Assembly: GCA_963804955.1 (NCBI GenBank)
Contig: CAWDSQ010000007.1
Span: 214,546-278,545 of the forward strand
Direction: 5' to 3'
Source of the DNA: an uncultured delta proteobacterium
GTDB lineage: Bacteria > Desulfobacterota > WTBG01 > CAIYCZ01 > CAIRTM01
Length of the DNA stretch: 64,000 nucleotides
In this document: in pieces, positions 43,030-58,125 of the stretch
Layout: each line of letters begins with the position of its first letter
Position numbering within the stretch: position 1 is the stretch's first letter
The notes under the pieces: generated by a model
What the model was told of the DNA's origin: nothing
The model's database searches: none
Seen by the model: only the letters and a program-made list of their open reading frames with translations
Made by a program: the position numbers and the translations under genes

Positions 43030-43235
43030 TTTAAGCGGTATGTACCGCACTGTCTTTCGGTGCAGCCGAAACACGGTTCAGTTTGCATCATAGGGGATTG
43101 ATACTTGATGGAACATGCTGCAGCCGGATAGGTCACTGTGCTTTAGAACACACCGGGGCGAGATACCGGCGGTGAAAACGTGAGTCGGTCAGGTATCGCA
43201 GGCCGGATATTGATTTTATCATGGACGCCACCCGG
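43030..43235 (+). repeat. degenerate UmuC-like 3'-end remnant, copy 1 (…RTVFRCSRNTVQFAS*GIDT*WNMLQPDRSLCFRTHRGEIPAVKT*) ending in 'gcaggccggatattgattttatcatgg'
   Basis: similarity to copies at 46585-46770 and 50655-50900; matches conserved UmuC C-terminal pattern …G(R)xTxxFAxxGIxxxWxMxxxxxSPxYTTxWxEIPxV. Confidence 0.5.
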
Positions 43236-43319
43236 GGATTCTGATACATACTACCTGCTCAAGCACCCGCCTGCCGGGGGAGGGCTTTTGCCTGCTGTAC
43301 GAAGGGAGATTATACCGCT

Positions 43320-43796
43320 ATGCACCGTAAGATATTTAAAGCAATACTGAAAGCAATGCCGAAATCCGGCGGCACGGATACCGGCCGCAGCAGCAGTGCA
43401 GACAGAGAGCTGCAGATTGCAACCTGCGCGCTTCTTCTTGACATTGCTCATGCTGACAATGAGTTTTCACCGGAAGAGGAGCTGAAAATAGAGCAGCTTA
43501 TGCGCGGTCATTTCGCGCTGTCGGAAGAGGCTTTTCTTGAAATAAAAAAGCTCTCCGAGCAGAAGCTCAAAGGCAGCATCGACCTGTGGCAGTTTGCCAA
43601 AACAATAAAAGAGCAGTATTCCTACCGGCAAAAAGAGAAAATTATCGAGATGCTGTGGGCTGTTATTTACACTGACGACTCGCTGCATGCCCACGAAGAC
43701 TATCTTGTGCACAAGCTTGCAACAGTGCTCAACCTTGATCATGGAAAGCTGATTGACGCAAAGATGAAAATCCTCGGGCAAAGAAAGGCGGACTGA
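43320..43796 (+). CDS. TerB-like (tellurite-resistance TerB/DUF533-like) domain protein
   Basis: 158 aa helical protein; …EEELKIEQLMRGHFALSEEAF…IYTDDSLHAHEDYLVHKLATVLNL…. Confidence 0.55.
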   Translation: MHRKIFKAILKAMPKSGGTDTGRSSSADRELQIATCALLLDIAHADNEFSPEEELKIEQLMRGHFALSEEAFLEIKKLSEQKLKGSIDLWQFAKTIKEQYSYRQKEKIIEMLWAVIYTDDSLHAHEDYLVHKLATVLNLDHGKLIDAKMKILGQRKAD

Positions 43797-43930
43797 AACA
43801 GCAGGTATTGAAAGAGTTGCCCGCGAAAAAGCGGGACGTCACCCTGAATAGTTCCTGCAATACAGTTAATTCAGCAACGTTCCCTGGCTGCCCCTTGAAG
43901 TTATTGATATAGTTATGGGACGCACCCTGG

Positions 43931-44536
43931 TCATTCCCTGCCGTCATTCACCCTGTCTATATTCTGCCGCTGGCGTATTAAAAAATTGCTGCTCGGAGCC
44001 CCGGTGGATGGCGCTGGTGATGCATCCCCTGCAGCCCCCGCTTTATTGGGTGTTACTACAGCTTTTGTAACAGTGCTGCTATTTTGACCCGGCGGTTTCA
44101 GCTGTGGATCTGACCAAACCCCCAGTGAACGTTTTTGGGCCAGGCTTACAGACAAATCGTAGGGATGTTTTTTATTTTTCTCCAGTAACGGCCAGGCTAA
44201 CCCTTTCCGGACAAGCTCCCGGTTAATGGAATCCTGCTTTTTGGAAGAAAAAACTTCTGCGGTTATGATATTTTCTTGAGAACTGATCATAGTAATTCTG
44301 AGCATCTGGTTTAAAGCAAGACTTTCAAGATAGCGCTTTGCCTCAGCCCCGAATTTTTGTTGAGGCTCCGGAGCAATAATATATGCCAGCTGCACGGTAT
44401 ACTGTTTTCCATTTGCACGTATCAAGAGCGTGTCAGCATCTACCACCGTCTCGCAGACCGCATTAAAGTTCTCGGCAAAGGCCGGACAGGCCAGGAGCAT
44501 AATCCCTGCAATAAAGAAAAAATATTTTTTAAGCAT
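43931..44536 (-). CDS. secreted thermonuclease (SNase-like) family nuclease
   Basis: signal peptide MLKKYFFFIAGIMLLACPAFA; …VVDADTLLIRANGKQYTVQLAYIIAPE… SNase core. Confidence 0.6.
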   Translation of the reverse strand: MLKKYFFFIAGIMLLACPAFAENFNAVCETVVDADTLLIRANGKQYTVQLAYIIAPEPQQKFGAEAKRYLESLALNQMLRITMISSQENIITAEVFSSKKQDSINRELVRKGLAWPLLEKNKKHPYDLSVSLAQKRSLGVWSDPQLKPPGQNSSTVTKAVVTPNKAGAAGDASPAPSTGAPSSNFLIRQRQNIDRVNDGRE

Positions 44537-44634
44537 ACTAATCTCTCCCCTGGTAGTGTTCTTAATGTCGTCAGCACACCAGCGCCACAGGCTATGTTCC
44601 CTGAAAAAGGCAGCCAATCAAGCCACCCTCTATG

Positions 44635-44798
44635 AGATTGTGTCGCAATTAAAAAAAGATGTCATCTCGACCAAAGGGAGAGATCTTTGCCTGAAGCAAA
44701 AGCAAAGCCTTAAGATTGCTGCGCGGTGGCGCAACCTGCGGTCTCACCGCCTGCGGCGGATTCGAAATGACAGTACAAAACTAATTATGACACAGCCT
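44635..44798. mobile_element. MITE-like element copy C (164 bp; TIR agattgtgtcgcaat / attatgacacagcct; TSD CTATG)
   Basis: flanking CTATG direct repeats at 44630-44634 and 44799-44803. Confidence 0.7.
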
Positions 44799-45425
44799 CT
44801 ATGCTGGCGGTTGCTGCCTGCCTCCCCGCCACCGGCTCGAACCATCGCATGTCTCTTCTTGTTTAATAGGGTCAAAGTCAGGCTGCCGTCAAGGGCTTCA
44901 TTGATATTTTCGGCATTATTGCAATAAATCTGAATGAGTTTCCGGCCATTGCTGCTGTGGTTTTGAGTAAAGAAAGGCGGCCTGAAACAGGCATTCATTG
45001 ACAAAAAAAAACCGGCTGCAACAACCGCCGGCCAAAACACCTGAAAAACAGTGCTGTGGGGGTGTTGAAAAACCCCATTAAGTCATTCTGAGCGCAGCGA
45101 AGAATCTCTATCTTTTTGAATTTTCTAAGCCCGAATGGGACCTTCACTTTGCAGATGCGCTCCTGAAAACCATGGCTATCCCCTGTTTTCCTGTCCGCAA
45201 AAGCCGTCACCACCAAAAAAAATCATGAATAAAATTTTTTGCGTGCTATATAGAAATCTTAAGCAGCAATGCACGGGCACAAGATAGTGCGCTAAAGACA
45301 CTTCAGGGTCAGGAGTCTCGTCTGACCTCCGCCCCGCTGTGGAGCACAGAGTTTGTTGTAAATTTTTTATCATATCTACAAATAGAGTTAAATGAAGTTA
45401 AACGTATAAAGCAGAAGAGGGTTCT

Positions 45426-46457
45426 ATGCAGCTAATAAAATCAATATCCCTGCTGTCTGTGATCGGCTCTCTGTTTCTGTGCTCATCTGCCTTTGCCTAT
45501 CAATCGGGGAACTTTACGTACACGGTAACAAACCAAACGGTCACAATCACTGGCTATTCCGGTCCCGGCGGAGCAGTTGCAATTCCAGATACCATTACCA
45601 GCATGCCGGTAAGCGGCATCGGGGATAGTGCGTTTTATTGTCAAACCCGTATGACCGGTGTCACCATCCCGAACAGCGTTACGAGGATTGGAGCACAGGC
45701 GTTTCGAAACTGCACCGGTTTGACCAGCGTTAGCATACCGGGAAGCGTTACGAGCATTGGGACATATGCGTTTCAATTTTGCAGCGGCCTGACCAGCCTT
45801 ACCATACAAAATGGCGTTACGAGCATTGGCTACAGTGCGTTTGGAAATTGCACGGCCTTAATAAGCGTAACCATACCGGGCAGTGTGAGAAGCATTGCTG
45901 GTTCTGCGTTTTCATACTGCGACAGTTTGAGCGGTGCATATTTTTACGGAAATGCGCCGGCGATGGGGCCGAATGTTTTCCTTAACTGCGCAGGCGGTTT
46001 TACCGTTTACTATACTGCCGGAGCCACGGGGTTTACCAATCCGTGGTATGGCTATCCAACGGAGGAGTCTAACCCGCCTCCGTCAACCAGCACCACTGTG
46101 CCGGTAGCGACGACAGTGCCAGCAAGCACAACGACGAAGCCGTCCACGTCAACGACGTCCGCATCAACGAGTATAAGCACAACATCATCATCGGCTGCTT
46201 CATCAACAACTACTACTCCGCCGAAGTCCACCACAACCTCTGCACCGCCGAAGCCAACCACCTCCACTACCAGTGCCTGCAACGTATCAGGTGATACCGA
46301 TGGCGACGGTATGCCCGATACGCTCGATAACTGCCCGAATGGTTTCAATCCCAATCAGCTGGATGCGAATGGTAACGACATAGGAGATTGCTGCGACCCG
46401 GCACCCGGCTGCGGCGGCGACGGACAGGCAACATGTGATACGGTGTGCGGGCAGTAG
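45426..46457 (+). CDS. secreted surface protein: BspA-type leucine-rich repeats + Thr/Ser/Pro linker + thrombospondin type-3-like Ca-binding repeats
   Basis: repeats IPNSVTRIGAQAFRNCTGLTSVSIPGSVTSIG…; DTDGDGMPDTLDNCPNGFNPNQLDANGNDIGDCCD. Confidence 0.65.
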   Translation: MQLIKSISLLSVIGSLFLCSSAFAYQSGNFTYTVTNQTVTITGYSGPGGAVAIPDTITSMPVSGIGDSAFYCQTRMTGVTIPNSVTRIGAQAFRNCTGLTSVSIPGSVTSIGTYAFQFCSGLTSLTIQNGVTSIGYSAFGNCTALISVTIPGSVRSIAGSAFSYCDSLSGAYFYGNAPAMGPNVFLNCAGGFTVYYTAGATGFTNPWYGYPTEESNPPPSTSTTVPVATTVPASTTTKPSTSTTSASTSISTTSSSAASSTTTTPPKSTTTSAPPKPTTSTTSACNVSGDTDGDGMPDTLDNCPNGFNPNQLDANGNDIGDCCDPAPGCGGDGQATCDTVCGQ

Positions 46458-46584
46458 TCGGAGTATGGGGTAACGGATTAATCCTCTGAAGAATCATCAA
46501 GGCCCAACTACCAGAGATGGTGGTTGGGCCTTTTTTGTAAAAGTCCACAGGAGATGTCACTACAGTGATGCTCTGAGTCAATGC

Positions 46585-46770
46585 TATGACCGCAGCAAGG
46601 TTCAGTTTGCATCATCTGGGATTGCTAAGCGCAGGAAAATGCTGCAGTCGTATAAATCCCCGTGCCACACCGCAAGCTGGAGCGGGATACCGGAGGGAAG
46701 GCGATAGTTAAGGCAGATGGCGCAGGCCGGATAGTGATTTAATCATGGTCTTTATATGCTCTTGAGACCA
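46585..46770 (+). repeat. UmuC-like 3'-end remnant, copy 2 (KVQFASSGIAKRRKMLQSYKSPCHTASWSGIPEGRR*)
   Basis: see copy 1. Confidence 0.5.
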
Positions 46771-46870
46771 AGCCGTGCAAGAAGCTATTGTGTTAAACAG
46801 CCTCCCTTTTTCTCCCATCCCCTGCAGCCCTGAGGATGAGCCATGAGCAGAGCTGTGTGCGCCACCTCTG

Positions 46871-47278
46871 CTACAGCACCGCCTGCTGTTTATACAGCGC
46901 ATTGGGCAGGCACTGCATGGTCGCTTTGATCAGATCTTCCTGCTGGAAAGGTTTGCTCAGATATCCGTCAAACATGCCGCTTATCCGTTCCGTCACGTCA
47001 CCGGAGGCATGGCCGGTCATGACCAGCAGCGGAATGTTTTTAACAGCTTTATCAGTTTTCAAAATGACGACCGCCTCGTAGCCGTTCATCACCGGCATCT
47101 GTATGTCCAGCAGAATCAGGTCGGGCGCGCACGCGCGGGCCATATCAACAGCATCCCGGCCATTAGCTCCCTCGATCAGATCAAAGTCGTACTCATCGTA
47201 AAACAATTTGATCAGCTCACGGATATGCGCAGTGTCATCGACAATCAGTATGCGCGGCTTTCCAGACATTGCAGTCAT
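46871..47278 (-). CDS. single-domain response regulator (CheY-like receiver)
   Basis: …ILIVDD…D…LILLDIQMP…; 135 aa. Confidence 0.8.
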   Translation of the reverse strand: MTAMSGKPRILIVDDTAHIRELIKLFYDEYDFDLIEGANGRDAVDMARACAPDLILLDIQMPVMNGYEAVVILKTDKAVKNIPLLVMTGHASGDVTERISGMFDGYLSKPFQQEDLIKATMQCLPNALYKQQAVL

Positions 47279-47961
47279 AGCAGTCCCCTTCTTTCATTGG
47301 ATTAACTCTACAGAAGTACAACCCTGTCCTTCGTGCAAAAAAACCCCTTCCTGAAGCTGAAAAAAGGCCGGCTGTGACATACATTTTCACTACCGGCAGT
47401 CTCTGATTATTCAGCACCTGTGCTGTCTGCCGTTATGCCCTCATGCGCTCTTTTCGGTTGTCTGCGACGCTGCGTTTCTCTGCATGTTTTCAATACAGAG
47501 AGCACCTCCGGCCATAGAGAACAAAACATGTTTTATTCAATTTTTATTACATATACTGTGCCAACAACAATGCCGTCTTTGCTTGCAACTCCATTGACAA
47601 TAAAAAATTTAAAAATCATTCTAAATTAAATGATTTTTTTTGAAAAATATCTGGAAGGATTCTTTTTCAGTCCTGAGAAATGATGGCTAAAGCCGGCATC
47701 TATTCAAAATGAGTAATAATTGGCAAATAAAATTACTCATAATGAATACGACATGCTGCTGTAAAAAACCGTATCTCTCTCCATCAAAAAACAACAGTAC
47801 AAAACAGCCCCCCGAGATGTGAACTGAAAAGCCGGCCACGACAGGTCAGGCCGGAGGGCAGCCAGAGGCCCGATGGTTTACATACTGTTCCGGCAGGTGC
47901 AGGCGGCAACAAGGCAAGACCGGGGAGGGGCAAGGCTGCGAAAATTCCAAACTGCTAAGCT

Positions 47962-48324
47962 TTACTGGAACGCAAGGGATACTTCCGGATTTCTTTTAAC
48001 AAGCTGGCGGATCATGATGTCGCTTAATATACTCGTGAACTTTATGCCGCCTGTTACCTTATATGGGCTTTCCTTTACCCACATGACTTCGGCCTCAACA
48101 GGAATATGCAGGATCGTGTTTGGTATGGAAATTTCCATTACAAGAACAACTCCGCGCTTAATGCTTTCAGTCTGCGGAAAGTTTACAGTCGCACCGCTTG
48201 AGCTCAGATTTATAATCCGGCATTCATACTGCCGCGTGTCCTGTTCCCTGATGGAGCAGCGCGTTTTGAGGTTAACATCAAAACGAGCCTTGGCGCGCAT
48301 ATGTGCATATGAAGATTTTCCCAT
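47962..48324 (-). CDS. PilZ domain protein
   Basis: …ECRIINLSSSGATVNF…; paralog of 8084..8494. Confidence 0.6.
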   Translation of the reverse strand: MGKSSYAHMRAKARFDVNLKTRCSIREQDTRQYECRIINLSSSGATVNFPQTESIKRGVVLVMEISIPNTILHIPVEAEVMWVKESPYKVTGGIKFTSILSDIMIRQLVKRNPEVSLAFQ

Positions 48325-48913
48325 ATTTTAATTGTTCCTGTGCCGATTTTAAATTGTATGTAATAAAAAGTAAAAATGCAGACTAAAAGAGGTCTGCCCG
48401 GACAACATAGCCTGCTCTGTTTTTTATCCGACATCTGCCTGTGGGACGAAGAATAGAAAAAAACACCCCATAAAGCAATAGCACCAGAGGCTATTATTTA
48501 GGCACTAAGGGGCCTGAGGAGCGGGGGCAGAAAAAATATTGCCAATCATGTCTGTTGCGGGCCTGAACCGGTGCCTGCATTTCGGGCGAGACATTCCCGA
48601 ACCGGCATTACGAGATTTACAGCCCTTCGAATATTTTGAACAAAACGATAAAAAAGAGCGGCTGTGCGTGTCGTGCACATCCGCCCTGTATCATCTGACT
48701 CTTTTGATGCCGATTTAAAATACCTGCACCCGGTTTTCCACCTGCAAATGCGGCACCCGTTTGAACTCCTTTGCATTGCTGGCAACAGGCAACTACCGAC
48801 TTCTGAAATTTTATGTTTAGCCAGAAAGTCAAGAAACAATCAGCGGCTGTTGTCCCCCTATTGTTGTTCGCAGGCCTGATAGTAATTTATGTATGAACGT
48901 CCCCTGGTCAGCC

Positions 48914-49207
48914 CTATGCGCCAACTGCGGCACGCAGTTCTCCAACTTTTATTTTCTTCTGCCCGGCATGCCAGAGGTCGAGTTTTGACTGCATATACAA
49001 CCAGCTTTCCGGCGTGGTGCCTGTTGCAAGGGCGATTTTTACGGCCATGTCCGGTGTCACAGGACCCCTGCCGTTTAAAATTGCAGACAGTGTTTTACGC
49101 GACGTGCGCAAACGTTTTGCGGCTTCCGTTATCGTAAGTCCCAGGGGGACCAAAACATCCTCCCGTAAAACTTCTCCGGGATGTGTGGGTTTGCGTTTGT
49201 TAATCAT
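48914..49207 (-). CDS. higA: HigA antitoxin (HTH-XRE)
   Basis: …HPGEVLREDVL…LGLTITEAAKRLRTSRKTLSAILNGR…. Confidence 0.8.
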   Translation of the reverse strand: MINKRKPTHPGEVLREDVLVPLGLTITEAAKRLRTSRKTLSAILNGRGPVTPDMAVKIALATGTTPESWLYMQSKLDLWHAGQKKIKVGELRAAVGA

Positions 49208-49229
49208 GATGTGTGCTCCTTGAAAATAG

Positions 49230-49508
49230 TCAGTGATAATCCCTGTAATCGACGATCACAGCATCTGCCCCTTCAAATTGAAAAGTAACCCGCCAGTTGC
49301 CGTTTACCCGGACCGACCAGGAGTCCTTCTCTTTGCCCGGCAGCCGGTGCAGTTTAAAGCCGGGCAGATTCATGTCCTCGGGGCATGCTGATGCGTCCAG
49401 GCGGTCAAGTATGCGGGCCAGCCTGGGGGCATGGTCCGGCATTATTTTACTGCAGTCATCATGGTGGAAAAACTTTTCCAGCCCTTTATGCCTGAATGAT
49501 TTAATCAT
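49230..49508 (-). CDS. higB: HigB toxin (RelE/ParE superfamily, 'plasmid maintenance system killer')
   Basis: MIKSFRHKGLEKFF…; toxin-first order with higA. Confidence 0.8.
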   Translation of the reverse strand: MIKSFRHKGLEKFFHHDDCSKIMPDHAPRLARILDRLDASACPEDMNLPGFKLHRLPGKEKDSWSVRVNGNWRVTFQFEGADAVIVDYRDYH

Positions 49509-49751
49509 GTCTCCATATATAACATGTAACCTAATGCGTTACAAGCAGTTTTAGCAATTGCCAGTGTATGCTGCTGTTGGCATGCGGATCAGCATGAAAA
49601 CTGTGCATAGCGCGGATAGTAAAAACAAAGCGTGCTGACACCTGTTCTTGTTTTTTCGTTCTATGGTTTTCCCGATGGATGTTCCCGGTTGTTTTTTAGA
49701 CCCACTAAAATACAGGTTGCATAATATATAAAAACTTATATAATTGAAAAT

Positions 49752-50327
49752 ATGAATACTGTCGTGAAAGCACTTAAGTTCATTGGGTCGAGTCTGGACG
49801 ATCTACGGAATTTCCCGGATGAAGCCCGGCGGGCTGCCGGATTTGAGTTTCATGCGGTTCAAAGCGGTTTTGATCCAAACGACTGGAAGCCCATGCAGGC
49901 CATCGGCCCCGGCGTAAAAGAGATTCGTATTCATGTGCTGGGCGAGTGGCGCGTTATCTATGTAGCTTAGCCAACAACCACCCGCATAGAGCCTGTGTCG
50001 CAATTTACTTTGCTGTCATCTCGACCGAAGGGAGAGATCTTTGTAGTAAGTAAAATCAAGGGGCTTAAGATTTCTCACCGCCTGCGGCGGATTCGAAATG
50101 ACATTAATAAATCAATTGTGACACAGCCTCATAGCGGGGGGGGGATTTCGCTAAAGCGAAATCAAAAAACACATAGTGTTTATGTTGCCTTTTTCAGAAA
50201 CGCATGTTTCTGAAATCAGTTCAGCGACGCAGTTTATGTGCTGCACGCATTCAAGAAAAAAAGTCAAAAAACGAGCCGCCAGGATATCGAACTGGCGCGT
50301 CAAAGGTACAACCGCATTGGAGGTTAA
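49752..50327 (+). pseudogene. Gp49-like (PF05973, HigB-family) toxin gene interrupted by a 140-bp MITE; N-part 49752..49970, C-terminal end (…AVYVLHAFKKKSQKTSRQDIELARQRYNRIGG*) resumes at ~50220
   Basis: N-terminal ORF ends in-frame inside MITE; C-terminal conserved block found in-frame downstream of MITE, stop overlaps antitoxin start region. Confidence 0.7.
49990..50129. mobile_element. MITE-like element copy A (140 bp; TIR agcctgtgtcgcaat / attgtgacacagcct; TSD CATAG)
   Basis: CATAG at 49985-49989 and 50130-50134; 96% identical to copy B. Confidence 0.75.
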
Positions 50328-50331
50328 AGTA

Positions 50332-50616
50332 ATGAACGATGACATTATTAAATCTTCCGGCAGCGTTTTTGCTGATCTCGGTTTTCCACCGGATGAAGCC
50401 GCTATTCTTCAGATGCGTGCCGACCTTATGGCTGATCTGCGCAAACTCATCAAAGCGAAAAAATTAACGCAGGCCAAAGCGGCAACAATTTTCGGGGTGA
50501 CGCAGTCCAGGGTATCAGATCTCATGCGCGGCAAATGGGAGAGATTCAGTCTTGAAATGCTCATTACGCTTGCAACAAAGGCGGGCATGCATGTCAGCTT
50601 GAAAACAGCGGCATAA
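50332..50616 (+). CDS. HTH-XRE antitoxin partner of the Gp49-like toxin
   Basis: …LTQAKAATIFGVTQSRVSDLMRGK…. Confidence 0.7.
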   Translation: MNDDIIKSSGSVFADLGFPPDEAAILQMRADLMADLRKLIKAKKLTQAKAATIFGVTQSRVSDLMRGKWERFSLEMLITLATKAGMHVSLKTAA

Positions 50617-50654
50617 CGCTGGCTTCAAAACAAAGGGCGCTGACCCCTGTTCTT

Positions 50655-50900
50655 GTTTTTGCTGAGCGGAGAGGGAATTTATTAGATCAAAAAGCCATGA
50701 TGCAGGCAATAGATTCCCTGAATCAACGCTATGGCCGCAACACGGTTCAGTTTGCATCATCGGGCATAGATAAGCGCTGGAAAATGCTGCAGTCGCAAAA
50801 ATCGCCGTGCTTTACCACATGACGGGGCGAGATACCGGCTGTGAAGGCATGAGACAGACAGGCGGTGCAGGCCAGATAGTGATTTATGTATGAACGCCCC
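50655..50900 (+). repeat. UmuC-like 3'-end remnant, copy 3 (…AMMQAIDSLNQRYGRNTVQFASSGIDKRWKMLQSQKSPCFTT*RGEIPAVKA*)
   Basis: best-preserved copy; W codon replaced by TGA. Confidence 0.55.
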
Positions 50901-50995
50901 GCAGTCCTACTCAAACAATTCAACTAATTCAACAACGTTAAGTTCCTAAAAAATTTTCTTGAAAAGCATTAAATACAACCGTCCCCTTTTAGATG
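50880..50995 (+). repeat. 110-bp direct repeat, copy 1 (contains 21-bp core aattcaactaattcaacaacg)
   Basis: approx 90% identical to 55878..55990; core also at 54697-54717. Confidence 0.65.
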
Positions 50996-51057: not shown

Positions 51058-52229
51058 CTAAGTGCCGTCATTCTCAACAAGTGAATAGCTTGTGCTTCTG
51101 CCTCCTGCGGGATCCTTCTTCAGCAGGTTCTGTTTCACAAGGTCATCAATATCGCGACCGGCAGTATCCTGAGAACATTTTGTGATTTTTGCCCATTTTG
51201 ACGACGTGAGTTTTCCTTCGAATCCATCAATCAATAGATTGAGCATATGTCGTTGGCGATCGTTCAACGGCTGCTGCGCAAGTTTTTTCCAAAGAGTTGC
51301 TTTGCGGATGACATTTGCCAATATGGTCTCGGCGCCATCGAACGCTCGATTGAGGCAGCTCAGGAACCAATCGAGATATTCCGTGATATCAAGATCGCCT
51401 TTCTGCATTTCTTCCAGACGAGTCGTAGTATTTTCCCTGTTCTGCCTTTATCTGGGCAGAGATGCTGTAAAAGCGCTGAGCGCTGCGCTCTGAGCGAGCC
51501 AGCATCATGTCAGCGAGCGCGCGACCGATGCGACCGTTTCCATCGTCGAAGGGATGAATGGTCTCAAACCAAAGATGCGCTGTGGCGGCTTTAAGAATGG
51601 GATCGACATTGGGTTGCTCTGTATTAAACCACTTTATGAACGCACCCATTTCTTTATCGATACGCGTTGCGGCAGGCGCTTCGTAGTGAACATGTTCGCG
51701 TCCATAGGGGCCGGAAACAACCTGCATGGGCCCGGATTCAGCCGTTCGCCATTTGCCGACAGTAATCTTCAAAAGGCCGCTGTATCCTGTCGGGAACAAT
51801 GCTGCGTGCCAACCGAAGAGCCTCTCTTTTGTAATCGGTTTATCGTAGTTCTGTGTTGCATCGATGATCATTTGAACAACACCATCGACATTTCTGTCTG
51901 ACGGTGTCAGTGCGCCGATATCGACGCCAAGCCGCCGCGCGAGAGAAGAACGAACCTGATCCCGATTGAGCTGCTGCCCTTCAATTTCGCTGGATTTTAC
52001 GACTTCCTCCGTCAGGGTGTCGCAAAACGGCTTCGTCGCGCAGCTTGATGCCGAAAGCCTCTATGCGCCCAAAGAGCTGCCCTTGCCGATAACGTACAGC
52101 AGCGAGTTTTTGTGCAAGATGGTCGTTATCCCAACGAAAATGGGGCCAATCGGCTCTTTGATATATGTAGGTAGTCATAATCTCCGCACCTTTCGCGTAG
52201 ATTATAGCACTTTTTCTCCGCATAAGCAA
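51058..52229 (-). pseudogene. Fic/DOC family protein (DUF4172 N-domain + Fic HPFxxGNGR + C-terminal wHTH) split into three ORFs (51981..52229, 51389..51871, 51058..51408)
   Basis: …YIYQRADWPHFRWDNDHLA… (DUF4172), …HPFDDGNGRIGRA… Fic motif; overlapping frames. Confidence 0.75.
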
Positions 52230-52517
52230 TCATATTCGCCGCATATATTGCGGAGAATAAAGCGGCTAATCTCCGCAATTGATTGATCCTTGCTTTGGGC
52301 TGGGCAGACTAGAGATGAGGGTTGTTCAATACAAAGTTTGCCGCAGGAAGCACTTCCTGGGTGGGGGGATTTAGTAAGTGGTTGCCTGCTCTAACTCCCG
52401 CACGTTGTGCAAAATATGTATTCAGGAGCTGCGGAAAAGCTAAGTCAACAACGTCCCCCTAGTTAGACCTTTCTGCTCTATGTTAGTAGATGATAAAACC
52501 CTTTTTCAAATACCCCT

Positions 52518-53516
52518 TTACAGCCGGTTGCGACGTCTGGCTGAATGCCGATCCATGCGCGAATGTTCGTCATCCTGCTTCCTGCCTGCGGGCTTTGCAA
52601 AAGCTGCAAGGTGCAGTATGTGCCCCTGGTGCTCAAAGGCAAACCCGATCACCGAGTCCGATTCAAGCCGTATGTCTTCACCCTCAGATACGGATTTGCG
52701 ATGCTCTGCTGTTGCATCTGCCATGCCGGCGATAAACTGCCTTGCTGCGTCACCATGAGATCCTTCAAGCTTCAGATCAGGATCATACCAGTCCGTGGCA
52801 TCAAGGGCGTAGCTCTTCACAAGCTTTGCAAACACCTTCCCGAACGTGTCGGGTCCGGCAAAGCTGTCAAGGCCTGCAACTTTCCCGTTTATCAGAAATA
52901 CAGCACCGGCCTGATTTTCGGCCCTGGTAAAGTTTTGCAGGTAGTCTTCAAGGGAAATTCTGTCCTTTTCGTAAATTTCTGACATGGCCATGCTACCGGA
53001 TACGGCCTTCCTGCGCCGCGCCTTCTTGTCTATGGAATTCCATATCTCTCCCTGGTCAGAACAATAGGAGGCATTAATTTTGAGCGAGTGGTTTACGTGA
53101 ACGGCCTTCTCCGCCCTGATATTCGGACAGAGCAGGCGCTCATGGCTGAAAAACTTGCCGGAGGCGTAGGACCACCGGCCCTGTTCCACGCAGCTCACCG
53201 GGATTATCACCTTTGACATGGCAGCGATGAGAATGGTGGCGTTGACGATACGGTTCTGCTTGGCCCCTACCAGCTCTTCGCCGTCCAGGATGAGCACCTG
53301 CTTGCTTGCCTTATTGATCACCTGCAGCTCAGGCACTGAGCCTCCCGTGCTCACCTCTCCAACTTCGATGAGCCCGCCCTGCAGCGCCTCGTCAAGAAGC
53401 AGGTAGTCGGCCTGTTCCGTACCACTGGTCAAAAGCGGCACCATGCTCAAATTTTTATAGGCTTGAGCCGGCCCCGTGGTGATGGTTGTGATATAGGTTT
53501 TAAGACTTTCGTTCAT
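52518..53516 (-). CDS. hypothetical protein (332 aa), first gene of an operon divergent from the WYL regulator
   Basis: no recognisable motif by eye; intact long ORF. Confidence 0.5.
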   Translation of the reverse strand: MNESLKTYITTITTGPAQAYKNLSMVPLLTSGTEQADYLLLDEALQGGLIEVGEVSTGGSVPELQVINKASKQVLILDGEELVGAKQNRIVNATILIAAMSKVIIPVSCVEQGRWSYASGKFFSHERLLCPNIRAEKAVHVNHSLKINASYCSDQGEIWNSIDKKARRRKAVSGSMAMSEIYEKDRISLEDYLQNFTRAENQAGAVFLINGKVAGLDSFAGPDTFGKVFAKLVKSYALDATDWYDPDLKLEGSHGDAARQFIAGMADATAEHRKSVSEGEDIRLESDSVIGFAFEHQGHILHLAAFAKPAGRKQDDEHSRMDRHSARRRNRL

Positions 53517-53674: not shown

Positions 53675-54652
53675 ATGCCACGAGGAGATCAGCTGGCGCG
53701 TCAGTGGAAAATTATTCAGACCATAGTCTCGTCAAAAAAAGGCAAAACGGCAACCGAGCTGGCAACCGAACTCGAAGCAAACCCGCGAACCGTCTACCGC
53801 GACCTTCAGGCATTGCAGACAGCGGGGTTTCCGATATACACGGAAAGAGTGGGCGATAAAAATTGCTGGACACTGCTTGATGCCATTAAAAACCAGATCC
53901 CGGTCCCGTTCGCATTTACCGAGCTCATGGCTCTGTATTTTTCAACCGATATGCTCAAAGCCCTTCACAATACAATTTTTTATGAAAACCTGGACTCACT
54001 GGCTAAAAAAATAAAAACCATCCTGCCTCCCGAGTCGCACAGATTCCTTGAAAACGCGCGCAAGACTTTTTCTGTTCAGAAGAAGCACTATAAGGACTAC
54101 GGCGGCTTCAAAGAGATAATCAACAAGGCTTCAGATGCCGCGCTGAAGCAGAAATGCGTCACACTTGTCTACTGCTCCATGCCGGAGAAAAAAGAGACCC
54201 GGCGCACCGTAGATCCCTACCGCATCTGGTTTTTCAATGAGACCTTTTACCTGATCGGCTACTGCCACCTGCGCAAGGAGCTCCGCTCTTTTGTGCTCGA
54301 CCGGGTCAAATCCCTCACCGTTACTGATGAGGAGTTTGTCATCCCTGAAGATTTTGATTTTGATGCCCTGATGAAGGGCAGCTTCGGCGTTATCACCGGC
54401 CCGACTGAATCCGTGCGGATACAATTTGAGAAAGAAGTGGCCGGCTATATTGAAGAAAAGGTGTGGCACAGCAGCCAGCGCATTAACCGGGCCTCTGACG
54501 GGGCAATTATCTTTGAGGCCGACGTTGCAATAAATGAAGAATTTAAAAACTGGATTTTAAACTGGGGATCAAACGCGATGGTTCTGGCGCCCGCATCGCT
54601 TGTTGCGGAGATTCAGGCAGAGATCGCCAAAATGGCTAACAGGTATAGCTGA
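53675..54652 (+). CDS. WYL-domain transcriptional regulator (wHTH-WYL-WCX; BrxR/CapW/PafBC-like)
   Basis: N-terminal wHTH (…ATELATELEANPRTVYRDLQALQTAGFPI…), WYL core (…RTVDPYRIWFFNETFYLIGYCHLRKELRSFVLDRV…), C-terminal WCX. Confidence 0.8.
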   Translation: MPRGDQLARQWKIIQTIVSSKKGKTATELATELEANPRTVYRDLQALQTAGFPIYTERVGDKNCWTLLDAIKNQIPVPFAFTELMALYFSTDMLKALHNTIFYENLDSLAKKIKTILPPESHRFLENARKTFSVQKKHYKDYGGFKEIINKASDAALKQKCVTLVYCSMPEKKETRRTVDPYRIWFFNETFYLIGYCHLRKELRSFVLDRVKSLTVTDEEFVIPEDFDFDALMKGSFGVITGPTESVRIQFEKEVAGYIEEKVWHSSQRINRASDGAIIFEADVAINEEFKNWILNWGSNAMVLAPASLVAEIQAEIAKMANRYS

Positions 54653-54819
54653 TTTATGGATGGATGCCCCCAGGATATTTCCTGCAGCACAGATAATTCA
54701 ACTAATTCAACAACGCCCTTTATGCTCCCAATATGAAGCTAATAAAGAGGGGGATGCAGGTAACCCCTATTCCAAGTGGCCACGACTAGGGGGTTTTGGG
54801 TGGCCGCCGGGGTTTATTT

Positions 54820-55230
54820 TTAAATAATACTTAAAATCGGCTCAAGACGCGGGTCAATGGCTTTCAAAAGTTTGGAAAATTTATCCAGGGATGGCTTTAC
54901 TTTACCCTGTTCATATCTGCTGTAGGCAGCCGGTGAATTTGAACCAAGATTTTTCGCAACATCACGTACGCTCAAGTGAAGGCTGCTGCGTTGCTGTTTG
55001 AGCGCCAGGGCCATAAGCAGGGTGTCATTGCTGGAGCCCACCATGAAAGTATCTGCCGCCCCCTCTGTAACGGAAACAGTAAAGCCTTTTTCATCAATGA
55101 TTGATTCAATGGCATCCTTTGCCATAAAATAAGCATCTTTTCGGCTCTTTCCCTGAGTATAAATCTTCAGCAAGGGTATTTCTACTGCCCACCATTTACC
55201 TGACCGGACAAGTTTGCCTTCTATTTTCAT
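54820..55230 (-). CDS. hicB: HicB antitoxin (RNase-H-like N-domain + HTH-XRE)
   Basis: 136 aa; overlaps hicA by 4 nt. Confidence 0.85.
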   Translation of the reverse strand: MKIEGKLVRSGKWWAVEIPLLKIYTQGKSRKDAYFMAKDAIESIIDEKGFTVSVTEGAADTFMVGSSNDTLLMALALKQQRSSLHLSVRDVAKNLGSNSPAAYSRYEQGKVKPSLDKFSKLLKAIDPRLEPILSII

Positions 55231-55427
55231 GTGCTCTCCTTTCTCTTGTTACCCGGATTGGCCAGCGCTGTTTTTACGATGGCCTCAGCGGTATATTCAT
55301 TAATCTCTGTGTGCCGGGGCACCGGAATTTTCTGCTCTCCGTTTGTCCATTTCTCATGGCTGCCGCCCTCGCCGTATTTCCACCAGCCAAGTTCTTGCAA
55401 CCGCTTGATGAGAACTTTCTTTTTCAT
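55227..55427 (-). CDS. hicA: HicA mRNA-interferase toxin
   Basis: MKKKVLIKRLQELGWW…GGSHEKWTNG…. Confidence 0.85.
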   Translation of the reverse strand: MKKKVLIKRLQELGWWKYGEGGSHEKWTNGEQKIPVPRHTEINEYTAEAIVKTALANPGNKRKEST

Positions 55428-55597
55428 ATTTTATATTGTATACATATTTATATACATTGCAAGTGTAAATAAACCGCTTCATTTTATTAGTGGCTGTTGT
55501 CCCGGATAAATTCCGTGAAGTGTCTGTCAAACAGGGGTAAGTTCAGCTGTCCACGATTATTGCCTGAAAAACAAAACACCCTTTAATCCAGGATACA

Positions 55598-55826
55598 GTT
55601 TAAGAAAGAAGTGGCCGGCTATATTGAAGAAAAGGTGTGGCACAGCAGCCAGCGCATAACCCGGGCACCTGACGGGTCAATTATCTTTGAGGCCGACGTT
55701 GCAATAAATGAAGAATTTAAAAACTGGATTTTAAACTGGGGATCAAACGCGATGGTTCTTGCGCCCGCATCGCTTGTCTCGGAGATTCAGGCTGAGATCG
55801 CCAGAATGGCTGGAAGGTACAGCTGA
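55598..55826 (+). pseudogene. duplicated 3' fragment (last ~72 codons) of the WYL regulator gene, about 93% identical to 54433-54652
   Basis: MAGYIEEKVWHSSQRITRAPDGSIIFEADVAINEEFKNWILNWGSNAMVLAPASLVSEIQAEIARMAGRYS vs WYL C-terminus. Confidence 0.75.
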
Positions 55827-55877
55827 GGAGATTTGCTAGAAAACGAAACGGACTGAGCGATTTCAATTTGCTACAAT

Positions 55878-55990
55878 ATGAACGCCTCGCAGACCTACTC
55901 AAGCAATTCAACTAATTCAACAACGTTATGCTCCCTAAAAAATTTTCTTGAAAAGGATTAAATAGAACCGTCCCCTTTTACTTAAAGGAA
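55878..55990 (+). repeat. 110-bp direct repeat, copy 2
   Basis: tatgaacgcctcgcagacctactcaagcaattcaactaattcaacaacgtta…ccgtccccttttac. Confidence 0.65.
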
Positions 55991-56060
55991 CTATTGGCGA
56001 CAAATCCTTCGGCTTCCTGAGCGGCATCAAGCATGTGTTGAAGTCTTATTCTGTCATCAG
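55980..56060 (-). pseudogene. truncated HEPN (DUF86/HepT-like) toxin remnant (27 codons: [29 protein letters not shown])
   Basis: ATGA overlap with MNT stop; HepT-like N-terminus then premature stop at the repeat boundary. Confidence 0.45.
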
Positions 56061-56362
56061 GCCTCATACTGCACCTCGGCCGTACTCAGAATCTCTTTGC
56101 GAAAGTACCGGCTTAATTCCTGCGGGGTGCGAAGGTCGGCCTTGTTGCCGAGCAAATCGCTGAGTTCATTTTCCATATGGCAAAGAGAAAAAAAACCCGG
56201 CAGCATTTCATCGTAAAATTCAACCAGCAGATCAATATCGCTGTCCGGCCTCATCGCCCCTTTCAGGGCAGAGCCGAAAAGAGATAACCTTTTAATGCCA
56301 TTGCGCCGGCAGAATTCAATGAGCCGGTCACGCGAAATTCGCTGATCGATTATGTTCGACAT
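56057..56362 (-). CDS. MNT-type nucleotidyltransferase (MntA-like antitoxin of HEPN/MNT module)
   Basis: …[22 protein letters not shown]…. Confidence 0.8.
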
Positions 56363-56515: not shown

Positions 56516-57469
56516 TTACCCCAACTCCTTATATTCTGTCAGCCTTTTAAATCGCCACTCCAGCCCGTCCATGCGGGGATAATATTTTTTATCCCTCGGC
56601 AGGATGATGGGCTTTTTATCCAGATCGAGCAATTCCTGGTAATCGCGGTTGCGTTTGTCGAGAAGCTTTGAAACATGCCACTTCAAATCCGGGCCGGGGG
56701 AAAGGATGTTTTTGTCCAGCGCCCAGTGAAAGCTGGGGGCAAGGGCAATGCCGTTGCAGGGATCATTGTCGCGTGATTCGGAGAAGGGGATAATATGCGC
56801 GGCTTCAACCATGACCGACCCATCGGGCAGGATCACCCGCCAGCCCGAGGCGGCGCAGCGGTAGTCATATGCTTCGCGCACCACGCGTGAAAACGCCGCA
56901 TCGCGGACTTTGTCGTTGTAGGTGCTGCAACATTCAGCCACTTTTTCAGGTTCCTTCAGGCAGTTTTCATATACTGCTATCTGCTGCTCTTCGGCTACAA
57001 CGGTGCGGATCTGTTCGCGGCTTGCCGGGAACCACCGGTCTATGAGAGTTTGTCGCAAAATATCGCGATCCGGGGCAGAGGAGATCAGGCTGAACAGATC
57101 ATCATCAAGGAATGCATATTCAAAATTTTCCGTTATCTGCGATGGGCCGCGCACGGTTGACAGCGCTGCGACTACAGCCTCGCGGCCGGGAATCGGCTTG
57201 AGATGCCAGAAGGATTCCCCTTTGTATAGATGAAAAAATGGAAAATACGGATTGCAGGCATCGCCTGGCTGCTGCACTGTCTGGAAAAATGATTTAAAAA
57301 TATCAAGAAGGTTTTGGTTATAGAGGATTTTATTTTCTTTGAGAAACCCTGCCTCGGCCAGGGCCAGTACGGCCAGCAGCATGACCGGCTTGTGGGGGCT
57401 GACATGCTCCCCTGAACGGTTTACATGCAGCTTCGAGAAGGCGTGTATGTAGTATTCAAGATCAGGCAT
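56516..57469 (-). CDS. HNH endonuclease (HNH_2-like) with N-terminal helical domain; possible restriction-type nuclease
   Basis: …YRCAASGWRV…VEAAHIIPFSESRDNDPCNGIALAPSFHWALD… HNH motif. Confidence 0.6.
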   Translation of the reverse strand: MPDLEYYIHAFSKLHVNRSGEHVSPHKPVMLLAVLALAEAGFLKENKILYNQNLLDIFKSFFQTVQQPGDACNPYFPFFHLYKGESFWHLKPIPGREAVVAALSTVRGPSQITENFEYAFLDDDLFSLISSAPDRDILRQTLIDRWFPASREQIRTVVAEEQQIAVYENCLKEPEKVAECCSTYNDKVRDAAFSRVVREAYDYRCAASGWRVILPDGSVMVEAAHIIPFSESRDNDPCNGIALAPSFHWALDKNILSPGPDLKWHVSKLLDKRNRDYQELLDLDKKPIILPRDKKYYPRMDGLEWRFKRLTEYKELG

Positions 57470-58011: not shown

Positions 58012-58060
58012 ATTATGGCGGGGACGAATCCCGACTGCAATCGGGACGACCTTCGGCCTC
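58012..58060 (-). repeat. degenerate partial copy of tRNA-Asp 3' end (tggcggggacga…gaccttcggc)
   Basis: 12/12 then patchy identity with 58126-58165; plausible integration scar (att remnant). Confidence 0.4.
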
Positions 58061-58083
58061 AGGTTCTGCTCTTACCCTTAACT

Positions 58084-58118
58084 AAAAAAAGCACTTAACC
58101 GATGAGGCTAAGTGCTTG
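58084..58118 (-). terminator. intrinsic terminator of the tRNA-Val/tRNA-Asp transcription unit (aagcacttagcctcatcggttaagtgctt + T7 on minus strand)
   Basis: hairpin + U-run downstream of tRNA-Asp. Confidence 0.6.
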
Positions 58119-58125
58119 AAAAATG

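What the first reader, a model, noticed from the sequence alone, without database searches (positions are those of the whole stretch)
43030..50900. Three tandem, progressively decayed copies of a UmuC-like 3' end spaced 3.5-4 kb apart, suggesting serial site-specific integration footprints
Copies at about 43030-43235, 46585-46770 and 50655-50900 share the start 'ggttcagtttgcatcat…' and the end 'gcaggccRgatagtgatttatgtatg…'. They still translate to a UmuC-like C-terminus (NTVQFASSGIDKRWKMLQ…SPCFTT*RGEIPAVKA), with stops accumulating from copy 3 to copy 1. A further fragment lies at 48868-48900. Each inter-copy segment carries different cargo: first TerB, SNase and the LRR protein; then the response regulator, PilZ, higBA and the Gp49/XRE pair; then fic, the unknown gene, the WYL regulator and hicAB. 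This is the pattern left when integrative elements that carry a surrogate gene 3' end accumulate at one att site. However, no intact umuC and no integrase lie in the window.
Basis: partly seen in the sequence, partly recalled or inferred. Interest (0 to 1): 0.7.

Follow-up and report, generated by a model that had tools for sequence, protein, structure and literature searches.

The report
Decayed cassette array carrying umuC relics
Three leftover umuC gene ends are real, but they belong to a 14-kb row of small toxin-antitoxin and defence gene modules beside a tRNA-Asp gene. The modules are joined by one recurring junction sequence, which looks like repeated site-specific insertion followed by decay, not like insertions into a resident umuC gene.

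Summary
Three umuC 3'-end relics (DUF4113; about 43030-43180, 46546-46695, 50655-50852) are each followed by the same spacer and junction, which I call L-O (GCAGGCC-N-GATAGTGATTTATGTATGRACG-YCCCC).

The repeated unit is the junction, not umuC. L-O-like sites occur at least 7 times, all on the + strand, and only within 43.2-55.9 kb. Three are followed by a ~100-nt segment, which I call R. Other gene-end relics also sit at junctions: WYL', 236 nt at 93%, bracketing hicAB; an HTH_37 end; a PIN end.

The region is low in GC and lies beside tRNA-Asp. A related MAG has the same tRNA-Asp/HNH_2 locus with R and L-O junctions but different toxin-antitoxin modules and no umuC relic. A more distant relative has nothing there. 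Intact umuDC operons in relatives lie elsewhere and lack the junction.

No recombinase is present in the window or the related loci. The junctions form no hairpin, so they are not integron attC sites.

Best reading (about 0.5): tandem accretion and decay of integrase-less modules at an att-like site, moved in trans. The umuC piece is arm baggage, not a target-gene footprint.

Three of the four relics (two here, one in a relative) start at the same umuC codon. Two relics differ mainly at synonymous sites.

The parts
43030..43180 (+). umuC' copy 1 (c1): last ~40-48 codons of umuC, with two stops and a 20-nt insertion
   Evidence: blastn/nhmmer; tblastn to intact UmuC, residues 379-418; DUF4113 E 1e-3; alignment
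43181..43246 (+). Spacer plus L-O junction 1 (core TGGACGCCAC at 43222)
   Evidence: site HMM hit 43191-43246, E 4e-8; alignment
43320..43796 (+). TerB-domain gene (module 1 cargo)
   Evidence: Pfam TerB E 1.7e-25
43833..43938 (+). O-like core, short R box (AATTCAGCAACG), then L-O: a unit with no cargo
   Evidence: sequence; site HMM hit 43896-43938, E 8e-3; motif positions
43931..44617 (-). SNase-domain gene
   Evidence: Pfam SNase E 2.4e-9
45426..46457 (+). BspA-type LRR protein followed by an intrinsic terminator
   Evidence: Pfam LRR_5 E 3.5e-34; sequence
46546..46695 (+). umuC' copy 2 (c2): starts at the CTTTTTG run (codon ~355), has a 9-codon deletion, and is the most decayed copy
   Evidence: DUF4113 E 2.5e-7
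46696..46755 (+). Spacer plus L-O junction (core degenerate)
   Evidence: alignment; weak site HMM hit 46715-46748
46871..47278 (-). Single-domain response regulator
   Evidence: Pfam Response_reg E 2.6e-22
47873..48331 (+). PilZ-like paralogue: no Pfam hit, but 75% nt identity to the PilZ gene at 8084-8494
48694..48790 (-). Relic of a PIN/VapC gene 3' end, 92% to the vapC end in L018
   Evidence: blastn; sequences
48869..48917 (+). L-O junction without any umuC piece
   Evidence: 91% to the c3 junction; site HMM E 2.5e-8
48914..49508 (-). higA-higB module, 88% nt to a higBA beside ruvX in relatives
   Evidence: Pfam
49579..49695 (+). Relic of an HTH_37 gene end plus hairpin (80% to 50584-50660), followed by an O-like core at 49674
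49752..50616 (+). Gp49-like toxin and HTH_37 antitoxin pair, split by a MITE at 49969-50145
   Evidence: Pfam; repeats
50655..50852 (+). umuC' copy 3 (c3): codons 355-419, one internal stop, the least decayed copy
   Evidence: DUF4113 E 3e-19; tblastn 74-77% to intact UmuC; dN/dS 0.15-0.26 against intact genes
50860..50991 (+). Complete L-O-R junction: L-O at 50860-50914, R at 50889-50991 with tandem AATTCAAC boxes
   Evidence: site HMM E 7e-9; R is 92% to 55877-55980
51058..52229 (-). One long Fic-family gene read in three frames (two frameshifts)
   Evidence: Pfam Fic; frame translations
52445..52470 (+). O-like core TCAACAACGTCCCCCTAGTT between fic and the ARPP-1 gene
   Evidence: identified by eye only
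52518..53516 (-). ARPP-1 domain protein
   Evidence: Pfam E 2e-92
53675..54652 (+). WYL/WCX transcriptional regulator; its stop codon lies inside the L-like arm
   Evidence: Pfam; exact match P0182 with this start
54629..54729 (+). L'-O junction plus a short R box
   Evidence: site HMM E 2e-5
54820..55427 (-). hicB-hicA module, 84-95% nt identical to copies in four other genomic contexts
55572..55826 (+). WYL': duplicated last ~78 codons of a WYL gene, 93% over 236 nt
55847..55980 (+). O-R junction: right half only, with a different left arm
   Evidence: site HMM E 2e-4; R at 92%
55978..56362 (-). MNT antitoxin, plus a HEPN toxin cut to ~30 codons at the end of R
   Evidence: Pfam NTP_transf_2; translation
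56516..57469 (-). HNH_2 restriction endonuclease that binds phosphorothioated DNA; the conserved anchor gene of the array (85% nt to L018)
58016..58202 (-). tRNA-Asp (58126-58202) plus a nearby partial copy of its 3' end (58016-58057); marks the chromosomal edge of the island

Best explanation
Window 43.0-57.5 kb is a horizontally acquired, low-GC array beside tRNA-Asp. It holds at least eight small modules of 0.1-3.8 kb: toxin-antitoxin pairs, defence genes and signalling genes. I use three labels for its recurring pieces: 'L-O' is the ~45-55-nt junction, written as a left arm L plus a core O; 'R' is a ~100-nt segment that sometimes follows O.

Shown:
- Neighbouring modules are joined by L-O (GCAGGCC-N-GATAGTGATTTATGTATGRACG-YCCCC), always on the + strand.
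- R, which carries two tandem AATTCAAC boxes, follows O at three junctions.
- Both arrangements, L-O-R and O-R-L-O, occur.
- Module content differs between two related genomes at the same locus.

Inferred: each module entered as a circle of the form [R - cargo - L] through site-specific recombination at O. The recombinase is encoded elsewhere or has been lost. The process resembles tandem accretion of cis-mobilizable elements (CIMEs). Deletions then trimmed the modules. Addictive toxin-antitoxin pairs survived, and so did whatever lay closest to the junction.

The three umuC pieces are such baggage. They are the last 40-65 codons plus ~25 nt of downstream spacer of diverged umuC genes that once sat directly left of L. 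They are carried on the module arm. They are not footprints of a resident umuC being split.
For: 1. Junction copies occur only inside the array and in one orientation. The site HMM hits 43191-43246, 43896-43938, 46715-46748 (weak), 48869-48917, 50860-50914, 54629-54682 and 55847-55902, with nothing in the other 50 kb.
2. L-only, complete L-O-R and R-only junctions overlap only at the ~10-nt core ATGRACGYCCC.
3. Circular permutation. The window has L-O-R at 50860-50991 and 54629-54729. L018 has R (4032-3948) directly followed by L-O (3940-3885), and the window has O-R-L-O at 43833-43938.
4. Synteny with turnover. L018 has tRNA-Asp, then HNH_2 (85% nt), then R/L-O junctions, but carries mazE/PIN, phd/yafQ and hicAB modules and no umuC relic.
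5. An empty site in a more distant relative, L025.
6. GC content is 0.46-0.50 in the array against 0.55-0.575 on both sides.
7. The hicAB module, at 84-95% identity, sits in four other contexts. Here it is bracketed by a 236-nt, 93% duplicate of the WYL gene end plus R boxes. That is what insertion of a circle carrying WYL'-O would give.
8. The copies are not in-situ duplicates: c3-c1 dN/dS is 0.27, and c3 against intact genes is 0.15-0.26.
9. A second genome (L001/L005) has a module of two unknown genes that ends in umuC'-L-O-R', with another L-O 2.3 kb upstream.
10. Accretion of integrase-less elements at att sites is documented (PMC5704250; PMC3146451).
Against: - No recombinase of any family was found in the window array, in L018 or in L001/L005. 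No autonomous element with this junction was found in the phage, plasmid or viral collections, nor among the fetched genome and metagenome loci, which were retrieved by UmuC peptide and not by the junction.
- The junction is only about 60-90% conserved and shows no clear dyad symmetry. Some module boundaries are illegitimate joins rather than clean site breaks: the HEPN gene is cut at the end of R, and toxin-antitoxin modules end exactly at stop codons.
- Only three genomes carry the junction, so co-ancestry rather than repeated recombination explains part of the pattern.
- Three of the four known relics (c2, c3 and L001) share one start in umuC, and c3 against L001 gives dN/dS 0.11. 'Random trimming' does not explain these well.
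Confidence: 0.5

Rival explanations
1. Integrative elements target the 3' part of a chromosomal umuC at about codon 355. Each brings a surrogate umuC end. The relics are surrogate or displaced ends left by serial insertions, and the umuC body and the integrases were deleted later.
For: - c2, c3 and the L001 relic all begin at the same CTTTTTG run, just after the QLNLF clamp-binding motif.
- c3 against L001 gives dN/dS 0.11 over 35 codons, as if the pieces had to keep coding.
- The relics keep ~25 nt of downstream spacer, part of which (the GCAGGCC/GGCGGCC stretch) also aligns loosely with native umuC loci.
- A precedent from my own knowledge: phage 21 and e14 insert in icd and carry a replacement icd 3' end.
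Against: - No umuC body or umuD beside any relic in two genomes.
- The sequences upstream of the relics are unrelated cargo terminators, not a conserved element arm.
- The conserved junction lies downstream of the stop codon and also occurs without umuC. The same locus in L018 has the junctions but no relic.
- Five intact umuDC loci of relatives show no insertion.
- The shared start abuts T-runs, so slippage at microhomology is an alternative cause.
Confidence: 0.22
2. No dedicated recombination site. L-O and R are remnants of one ancestral umuC-downstream segment or of a dispersed repeat. They were multiplied by unequal or homology-facilitated recombination with incoming DNA, and cargo was joined illegitimately.
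For: - Fuzzy boundaries and illegitimate joins: HEPN is cut at the end of R, toxin-antitoxin modules end at stop codons, and there are T-run junctions.
- No recombinase found.
- Contiguous umuC'-L-O-R in two genomes suggests one ancestral segment.
Against: - L-only and R-only junctions share only a ~10-nt core, too short for RecA-driven exchange.
- All copies are in one orientation and confined to the array.
- The same junction joins unrelated modules in a second genome.
- The copies diverged as coding genes, which does not fit local duplication.
Confidence: 0.18
3. The DUF4113 pieces are kept because they still work. They would be a free-standing mini-ORF starting at the conserved Met370 that modulates Pol V or the SOS response, carried as cargo next to the junction.
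For: - dN/dS 0.11 between c3 and the L001 relic.
- Both keep an ATG at codon 370, and P0001 is a called 47-aa ORF.
- Lone 'DUF4113 domain-containing protein' genes are annotated on Aeromonas plasmids.
Against: - c1 and c2 are clearly dead.
- c3 and L001 each carry a stop or a frameshift in the last 15 codons.
- No convincing ribosome-binding site.
- Only 35 codons were compared.
Confidence: 0.07
4. Assembly artefact or chimeric MAG contig.
For: The contig has many frameshifted genes.
Against: - The repeats are 63-93% identical, not collapsed or duplicated reads.
- The same modules and junctions appear in independent assemblies: L018, L001, L002, L003 and L005.
Confidence: 0.03

Closest known systems
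Tandem accretion of ICE/IME remnants as cis-mobilizable elements (CIMEs), e.g. ICESt1-related elements at fda in Streptococcus thermophilus (reviewed in PMC5704250)
   Same: Integrase-less modules flanked by direct att-type repeats. Serial insertion into an existing att site, followed by decay. Toxin-antitoxin and defence cargo.
   Different: - The modules here are far smaller (0.1-3.8 kb) and more numerous.
- The repeat is not the end of an adjacent target gene.
- No related autonomous element or integrase is known.
- The junction comes with a two-part L/R structure.
Dehalococcoides ssrA genomic islands (PMC3146451)
   Same: Many tandem islands downstream of one small RNA gene. Each is bounded by a direct repeat with extra conserved flanking sequence. 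About half lack an integration module. Content varies between strains.
   Different: - There, the repeat is the 20-nt ssrA 3' end and a serine integrase (DsiB) is present in 16 of 31 islands.
- Here, the repeat shows no more than chance similarity to the neighbouring tRNA-Asp and no integrase is seen.
Phage 21 / e14 insertion in icd with a replacement 3' end (my own knowledge, not checked in the library)
   Same: A gene 3' end of ~50-65 codons is duplicated as a diverged copy at an element boundary.
   Different: - The icd body stays intact and adjacent, the crossover is inside the gene, and the integrase is next to it.
- Here there is no gene body, the common breakpoint is after the stop codon, and there is no integrase.
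Chromosomal integron cassette arrays and integrase-less attC clusters (CALINs)
   Same: A one-orientation array of small cassettes rich in toxin-antitoxin genes, separated by a recurring site. The recombinase is not within the array.
   Different: - The junctions do not fold: DNA folding gives z +0.3 to +1.4 for six of the seven junction stretches and -0.5 for the seventh.
- There is no RYYYAAC...GTTRRRY pairing.
- Genes lie on both strands and have their own promoters.
- No intI was found.
pdif (XerC/D) modules of Acinetobacter plasmids (my own knowledge)
   Same: Small modules, often toxin-antitoxin pairs, bounded by short sites and moved by a recombinase encoded elsewhere.
   Different: - pdif sites are 28-bp XerC-spacer-XerD sites in alternating orientation.
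- The junction here has no dif-like arms (compared by eye) and all copies are direct.

Membership tests
Integron cassette array / CALIN | attC sites: imperfect inverted repeats (R''/L''...L'/R') that fold as single-stranded hairpins | tested here: not met
   DNA folding of seven junction stretches, one of them on both strands, gave energies no better than shuffles: z +0.3 to +1.4 for six stretches and -0.5 for the seventh
Integron cassette array / CALIN | intI tyrosine integrase with attI at the head of the array (absent in CALINs) | tested here: not met
   No Phage_integrase hit in any ORF scanned; the neighbours are a secreted protein and an HNH_2 gene beside tRNA-Asp
Integron cassette array / CALIN | Mostly promoterless single-ORF cassettes in one orientation | tested here: not met
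   Operons lie on both strands, and the toxin-antitoxin modules carry their own upstream regions
CIME-type accretion at an att site | Modules bounded by direct repeats of one att core | tested here: met
   Seven site-HMM hits (six at E<=0.01, one weak at E 0.15) plus three cores identified by eye, all on the + strand
CIME-type accretion at an att site | Loss of integration and transfer genes | tested here: met
   No recombinase, relaxase or T4SS genes in the array
CIME-type accretion at an att site | A related autonomous element whose integrase uses the same att site | tested here: inconclusive
   None found in L018, L001/L005, the viral contigs, or the phage and plasmid collections. The rest of the source genome could not be read
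CIME-type accretion at an att site | The att repeat equals the end of the adjacent target gene (tRNA or protein gene) | tested here: not met
   No significant similarity to tRNA-Asp; no umuC gene body adjacent
Insertion in a gene 3' end with a surrogate end (icd/phage 21 type) | Intact target gene fused to an element-borne 3' end | tested here: not met
   tblastn finds only C-terminal pieces in the window and in L005
Insertion in a gene 3' end with a surrogate end (icd/phage 21 type) | Common crossover inside the coding sequence | tested here: inconclusive
   c2, c3 and L001 share a left end at codon ~355, but this abuts T-runs and unrelated upstream DNA. The conserved breakpoint is after the stop codon
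UmuC (Pol V catalytic subunit) gene | IMS, IMS_C and DUF4113 domains in one ~420-aa ORF downstream of umuD | tested here: not met
   Only the DUF4113 part is present. Relatives have full umuD-umuC
MITE / REP-type dispersed repeat | Terminal inverted repeats and genome-wide intergenic spread | tested here: not met
   There are no inverted ends, and copies are confined to 13 kb of the 64 kb. A true MITE in the same window behaves differently
Xer/dif modules | 28-bp XerC-spacer-XerD site | tested here: inconclusive
   Compared by eye with the dif consensus from memory; no match to either arm; no formal model run

The most novel reading that the evidence does not exclude
The array is the visible part of an undescribed, integron-like gene-capture system of uncultured Desulfobacterota. 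Small circular cassettes with conserved R and L ends would be inserted and shuffled at a ~45-bp double-stranded (non-hairpin) site. The recombinase would be host-encoded or distant and is not yet identified. Arrays would build up beside tRNA-Asp and act as reservoirs of toxin-antitoxin and defence genes.
Probability: 0.2. Interest if true: 0.75.

Novelty: new variant of a known kind. Interest (0 to 1): 0.45.

Why it matters
If the junction is a working recombination site, this is a compact, integrase-less cassette platform in a poorly studied, uncultured lineage. It would be distinct from integrons (no attC hairpins) and from classical tRNA-targeting islands (the repeat is not the tRNA end). 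It would show how toxin-antitoxin and defence genes are traded among Desulfobacterota.

The junction also gives a concrete sequence handle (L-O-R) for finding the recombinase.

The umuC relics are a useful molecular fossil. Their shared start and their synonymous-biased divergence point to either a fixed arm length of the mobile unit or a surviving function of the UmuC C-terminal domain.

If the junction is not a working site, the region is an ordinary decayed island beside a tRNA gene.

Tried and rejected
- **Integron attC.** The junctions do not fold.
- **Junction core derived from the tRNA-Asp 3' end.** The shared CGTCCCC heptamer scores no better than shuffles.
- **Known RNA families.** Only the two tRNAs were found.
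- **Similarity of umuC'-L-O-R to plasmids, phages or E. coli genomes.** None.
- **Pattern scans of viral contigs for the R box and the O core.** Four hits, all chance matches with no extended similarity.
- **An intact umuC carrying the junction.** Genome and metagenome scans and a full-length UmuC search found intact umuDC in L004, L015, L016, L032 and L038. None has L-O, and none is on the window's contig.
- **A C-terminally short UmuC (P0076).** This looked like an insertion site but is a frameshift in an error-rich contig.
- **WYL homologues as a route to an integrase-bearing element.** The nearest usable context is an unrelated restriction-modification locus.
- **Widening the junction to a short 'GTCCCC-N2-ATT' core present at every gene boundary.** Enrichment is only modest (6 on the + strand against 1 on the - strand in the array; 7 in the other 50 kb on both strands), so I treat the extra by-eye cores as tentative.
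- **The DinB-like gene at 4180-5384, or the TCAACAACG near it, as a related site.** Unrelated.
- **Literature search for umuC as an integration target.** This turned up only umuC as a backbone gene of ICEs or prophages. A search for the motif sequences found nothing relevant.

Full report
**Checking the observation.** A repeat search of 40-54 kb returned a three-copy family at 43065-43248, 46589-46772 and 50734-50917, and a four-copy 34-nt family that adds 48870-48903. I call the three copies c1, c2 and c3 from left to right.
- With c3 as query, blastn and nhmmer gave 78% over 176 nt to c2 (E 1e-35) and 76% over 165 nt to c1 (E 4e-30).
They hit Pfam DUF4113, the C-terminal domain of UmuC-type polymerases, at E 3e-19, 2.5e-7 and 1e-3.
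- Against intact 419-aa UmuC proteins recovered from relatives, they cover residues 355-419 (c3), 374-415 or 358-415 with a 9-codon gap (c2), and 379-418 (c1). Alignment extends c1 to about 43030 across a 20-nt insertion.
- No other umuC or umuD piece is in the window. The only Y-family polymerase is a frameshifted DinB-like gene at about 4180-5384, behind a LexA-like gene and an Abi_2 gene.
- The cargo list is right. No recombinase turned up among the larger ORFs of the window scanned with Pfam or NCBIfam, apart from an IS110-family transposase at 10733-11875.
- 'Progressive decay from 3 to 1' is only roughly true. By replacement changes c2 is the most decayed. Because lon, an acrB-like gene, the dinB-like gene and fic are all broken in this contig, some lesions may be assembly errors.

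The same searches showed that the repeated thing extends beyond umuC. I use three labels: 'L-O' is the junction after each umuC piece, written as a left arm L plus a core O; 'R' is the ~100 nt that follows c3.
- R (50889-50991) recurs at 55877-55980 (92%) and, shortened, at 54690-54729.
- The last 236 nt of the WYL regulator gene (54417-54652) recur at 55591-55826 (93%). The two copies bracket the hicAB pair.
- A 77-nt piece, the end of the HTH_37 gene plus a hairpin (50584-50660), recurs at 49579-49655.
- A PIN/VapC gene end survives at 48694-48790.
- An HMM built from ten junction copies (six from this window) hit only inside 43191-55902, always on the + strand. The hits are 43191-43246, 43896-43938, 46715-46748 (weak), 48869-48917, 50860-50914, 54629-54682 and 55847-55902.
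- By eye there are further cores at 43833, 49674 and 52449. I treat these as tentative, because a generalised short core is only modestly enriched.
- L-only junctions (c1, c2, 48870), complete L-O-R junctions (c3, 54645) and the R-only junction (55879) overlap only at ATGRACGYCCC.

**Setting.**
- The array has GC 0.46-0.50, against 0.55-0.575 on both sides.
- It ends beside tRNA-Asp and tRNA-Val (58126-58302, minus strand), which are followed by lon, clpX, clpP and tig. This is a chromosome of an uncultured Desulfobacterota-type organism.
- Ten window proteins are on record on one 560,182-nt NCBI/ENA contig.

**Relatives.**
- L018 comes from the MAG assembly GCA_016932595.1. It carries the same tRNA-Asp and an 85% identical HNH_2 gene, a restriction enzyme that binds phosphorothioated DNA. 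Next comes an R segment (90-93%) directly followed by L-O. After that come mazE/PIN, phd/yafQ and a 92% identical hicAB, with two more L-O copies between them, and then sodB.
- L018 has no umuC relic. The same MAG has an intact umuD-umuC on another contig (L004).
- L025, a more distant relative with at least 90% identical ClpX, runs from tRNA-Asp straight into a GAF/MshEN ATPase gene, with no array.
- The hicAB module (84-95% nt) also sits beside alaS with brnTA, beside a PilZ gene, and alone between a cytochrome gene and pfk. The higBA module (88%) sits beside ruvX.
- So the cargo is mobile, the locus is a hot spot, and R and L-O are the recurring joints at this hot spot in two genomes.

**Where the umuC pieces come from.**
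- Intact umuDC operons with 74-86% nt identity to c3 were found in five loci: L004, L015, L016, L032 and L038. L032 and L038 show the same neighbourhood (histidine kinase, umuD, umuC, DUF3108 gene).
- None has L-O or R. Similarity to the relics fades within about 35 nt after the stop codon, at GCAGGCCGG, just before L.
- None of the 16 UmuC clusters with at least 70% identity to the query is recorded on the 560-kb contig.
- A second genome (L001/L005) has a lone relic, called as the 47-aa ORF P0001. It has the same spacer, L-O and an R-like tail, at the right end of a two-gene module, and another L-O lies at the module's left end. There is no umuC body within 10 kb.

**Age and origin of the copies.**
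- Codon-position counts and Nei-Gojobori estimates show that c3 differs from intact genes as functional genes differ from each other: dN/dS 0.15-0.26, against 0.13-0.25 among intact genes.
- c3 against c1 gives 0.27. c2 is near neutral: 0.74 against c3 and 1.09 against c1.
- The copies therefore come from separately evolving, once-functional umuC genes, not from local duplication.
- Two facts remain awkward. c3 and the L001 relic, both without a gene body and in different genomes, give dN/dS 0.11 over 35 codons. And c2, c3 and the L001 relic all start at the same CTTTTTG run at codons ~354-356, right after the QLNLF clamp-binding motif, each abutting a T-run of upstream cargo.

**Mechanism.** The pattern that fits most of this is tandem accretion at an att-like site.
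- A circle [R - cargo - L] recombining at O with an O already in the chromosome gives O-R-cargo-L-O. Adjacent units then meet as L-O-R, and a unit that has lost its cargo reads O-R-L-O.
- All three forms are present.
- The hicAB insertion is the cleanest case. To its left is the full WYL gene, then L'-O and a short R box. To its right is WYL', then a different left arm, then O and full R.
- The tandem AATTCAAC boxes about 30 nt from the core resemble arm-type binding sites of lambda-like integrases. That is an inference from general knowledge, not a test.
- The recombinase is not in any of the loci, so it must act in trans or be lost. Integrase-less units that keep att sites and pile up in tandem are documented for streptococcal ICE/IME remnants (PMC5704250) and for Dehalococcoides ssrA islands (PMC3146451).
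- Later deletions explain the gene-end relics. Anything may go except the junction and the DNA closest to it. Toxin-antitoxin pairs resist loss.

An element that targets umuC and brings a surrogate end needs a umuC body at the left of the array, a crossover inside the gene, and usually an integrase. None is seen.
- The common breakpoint is after the stop codon.
- The junction works as a joint without umuC, and in a genome whose array has no relic.
- Intact umuDC loci are undisturbed.
- I keep this model at about 0.2 because of the shared start and the low dN/dS.

**Other rivals.** These are plain homologous or illegitimate recombination around an ancestral umuC-downstream segment (about 0.18), a functional DUF4113 mini-ORF (about 0.07), and an assembly artefact (about 0.03; independent assemblies carry the same pieces).

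**Exclusions.**
- Not an integron: the junctions do not fold, and genes lie on both strands with their own promoters.
- The junction shows no more than chance similarity to tRNA-Asp.
- Not a known RNA.
- Not a dispersed repeat of this window.
- No match in the plasmid, phage or E. coli collections.

**Verdict.** The structure is best filed as a new variant of site-specific accretion arrays, with a real but unproven chance (about 0.2) that it marks a new cassette-capture system. The missing recombinase is the key gap.

Noticed in passing
44612-44800, 49969-50145, 57795-57961, 6288-6470, 6542-6638 (-), 40972-41155 (partial): A ~165-190-nt MITE-like element with inverted ends GGCTGTGTCGCAATT...AATTGTGACACAGCC. 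One copy splits the Gp49/HTH_37 pair.
   Followed up: partly
10733-11875 (-): IS110-family transposase gene (NCBIfam E 3e-50). Its ends and target were not examined.
   Followed up: no
2496-5384 (+): A LexA/UmuD-like S24 peptidase, then an Abi_2 abortive-infection gene, then a DinB-like Pol IV gene with a frameshift. The Abi_2 gene looks inserted into a lexA-dinB pair.
   Followed up: partly
58381-60784, 32016-35087, 51058-52229, 17341-17676: lon, an acrB-like gene and fic are each split into several frames, and carD is present only as its C-terminal part. The contig seems rich in indels (long-read assembly?) or in pseudogenes.
   Followed up: partly
58016-58057 and 58126-58202; L018 1-175 and 1721-1802: A partial direct copy of the tRNA-Asp 3' end (12 nt exact) lies 100 nt from the tRNA. 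In L018 such a copy brackets a 1.5-kb module with an HTH_3 gene and a PIN-like gene. This is a separate, classical tRNA-Asp insertion footprint.
   Followed up: partly
57590-57760; L016 2715-2800: Tandem GGAGTTCGGAGTT / GGAGCGCAGGGGCACGG repeats between the HNH_2 gene and the MITE. The same repeat family lies just downstream of the intact umuC in L016.
   Followed up: no
47873-48331 vs 8084-8494: The array's PilZ-like gene is a 75% nt-identical, inverted paralogue of a PilZ gene 40 kb away.
   Followed up: no
55978-56060 (-): The HEPN toxin partner of the MNT antitoxin is cut to about 30 codons exactly where the R segment ends, leaving an orphan antitoxin.
   Followed up: partly
L001 1838-1990: In the related contig a ~150-nt element with inverted ends (CTAGTGGGCCTTCACATTTG...) sits immediately after an L-O core, as if inserted at the CTAG.
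   Followed up: no
45645-45851: Three 69-nt in-frame repeats inside the LRR_5 protein gene.
   Followed up: no
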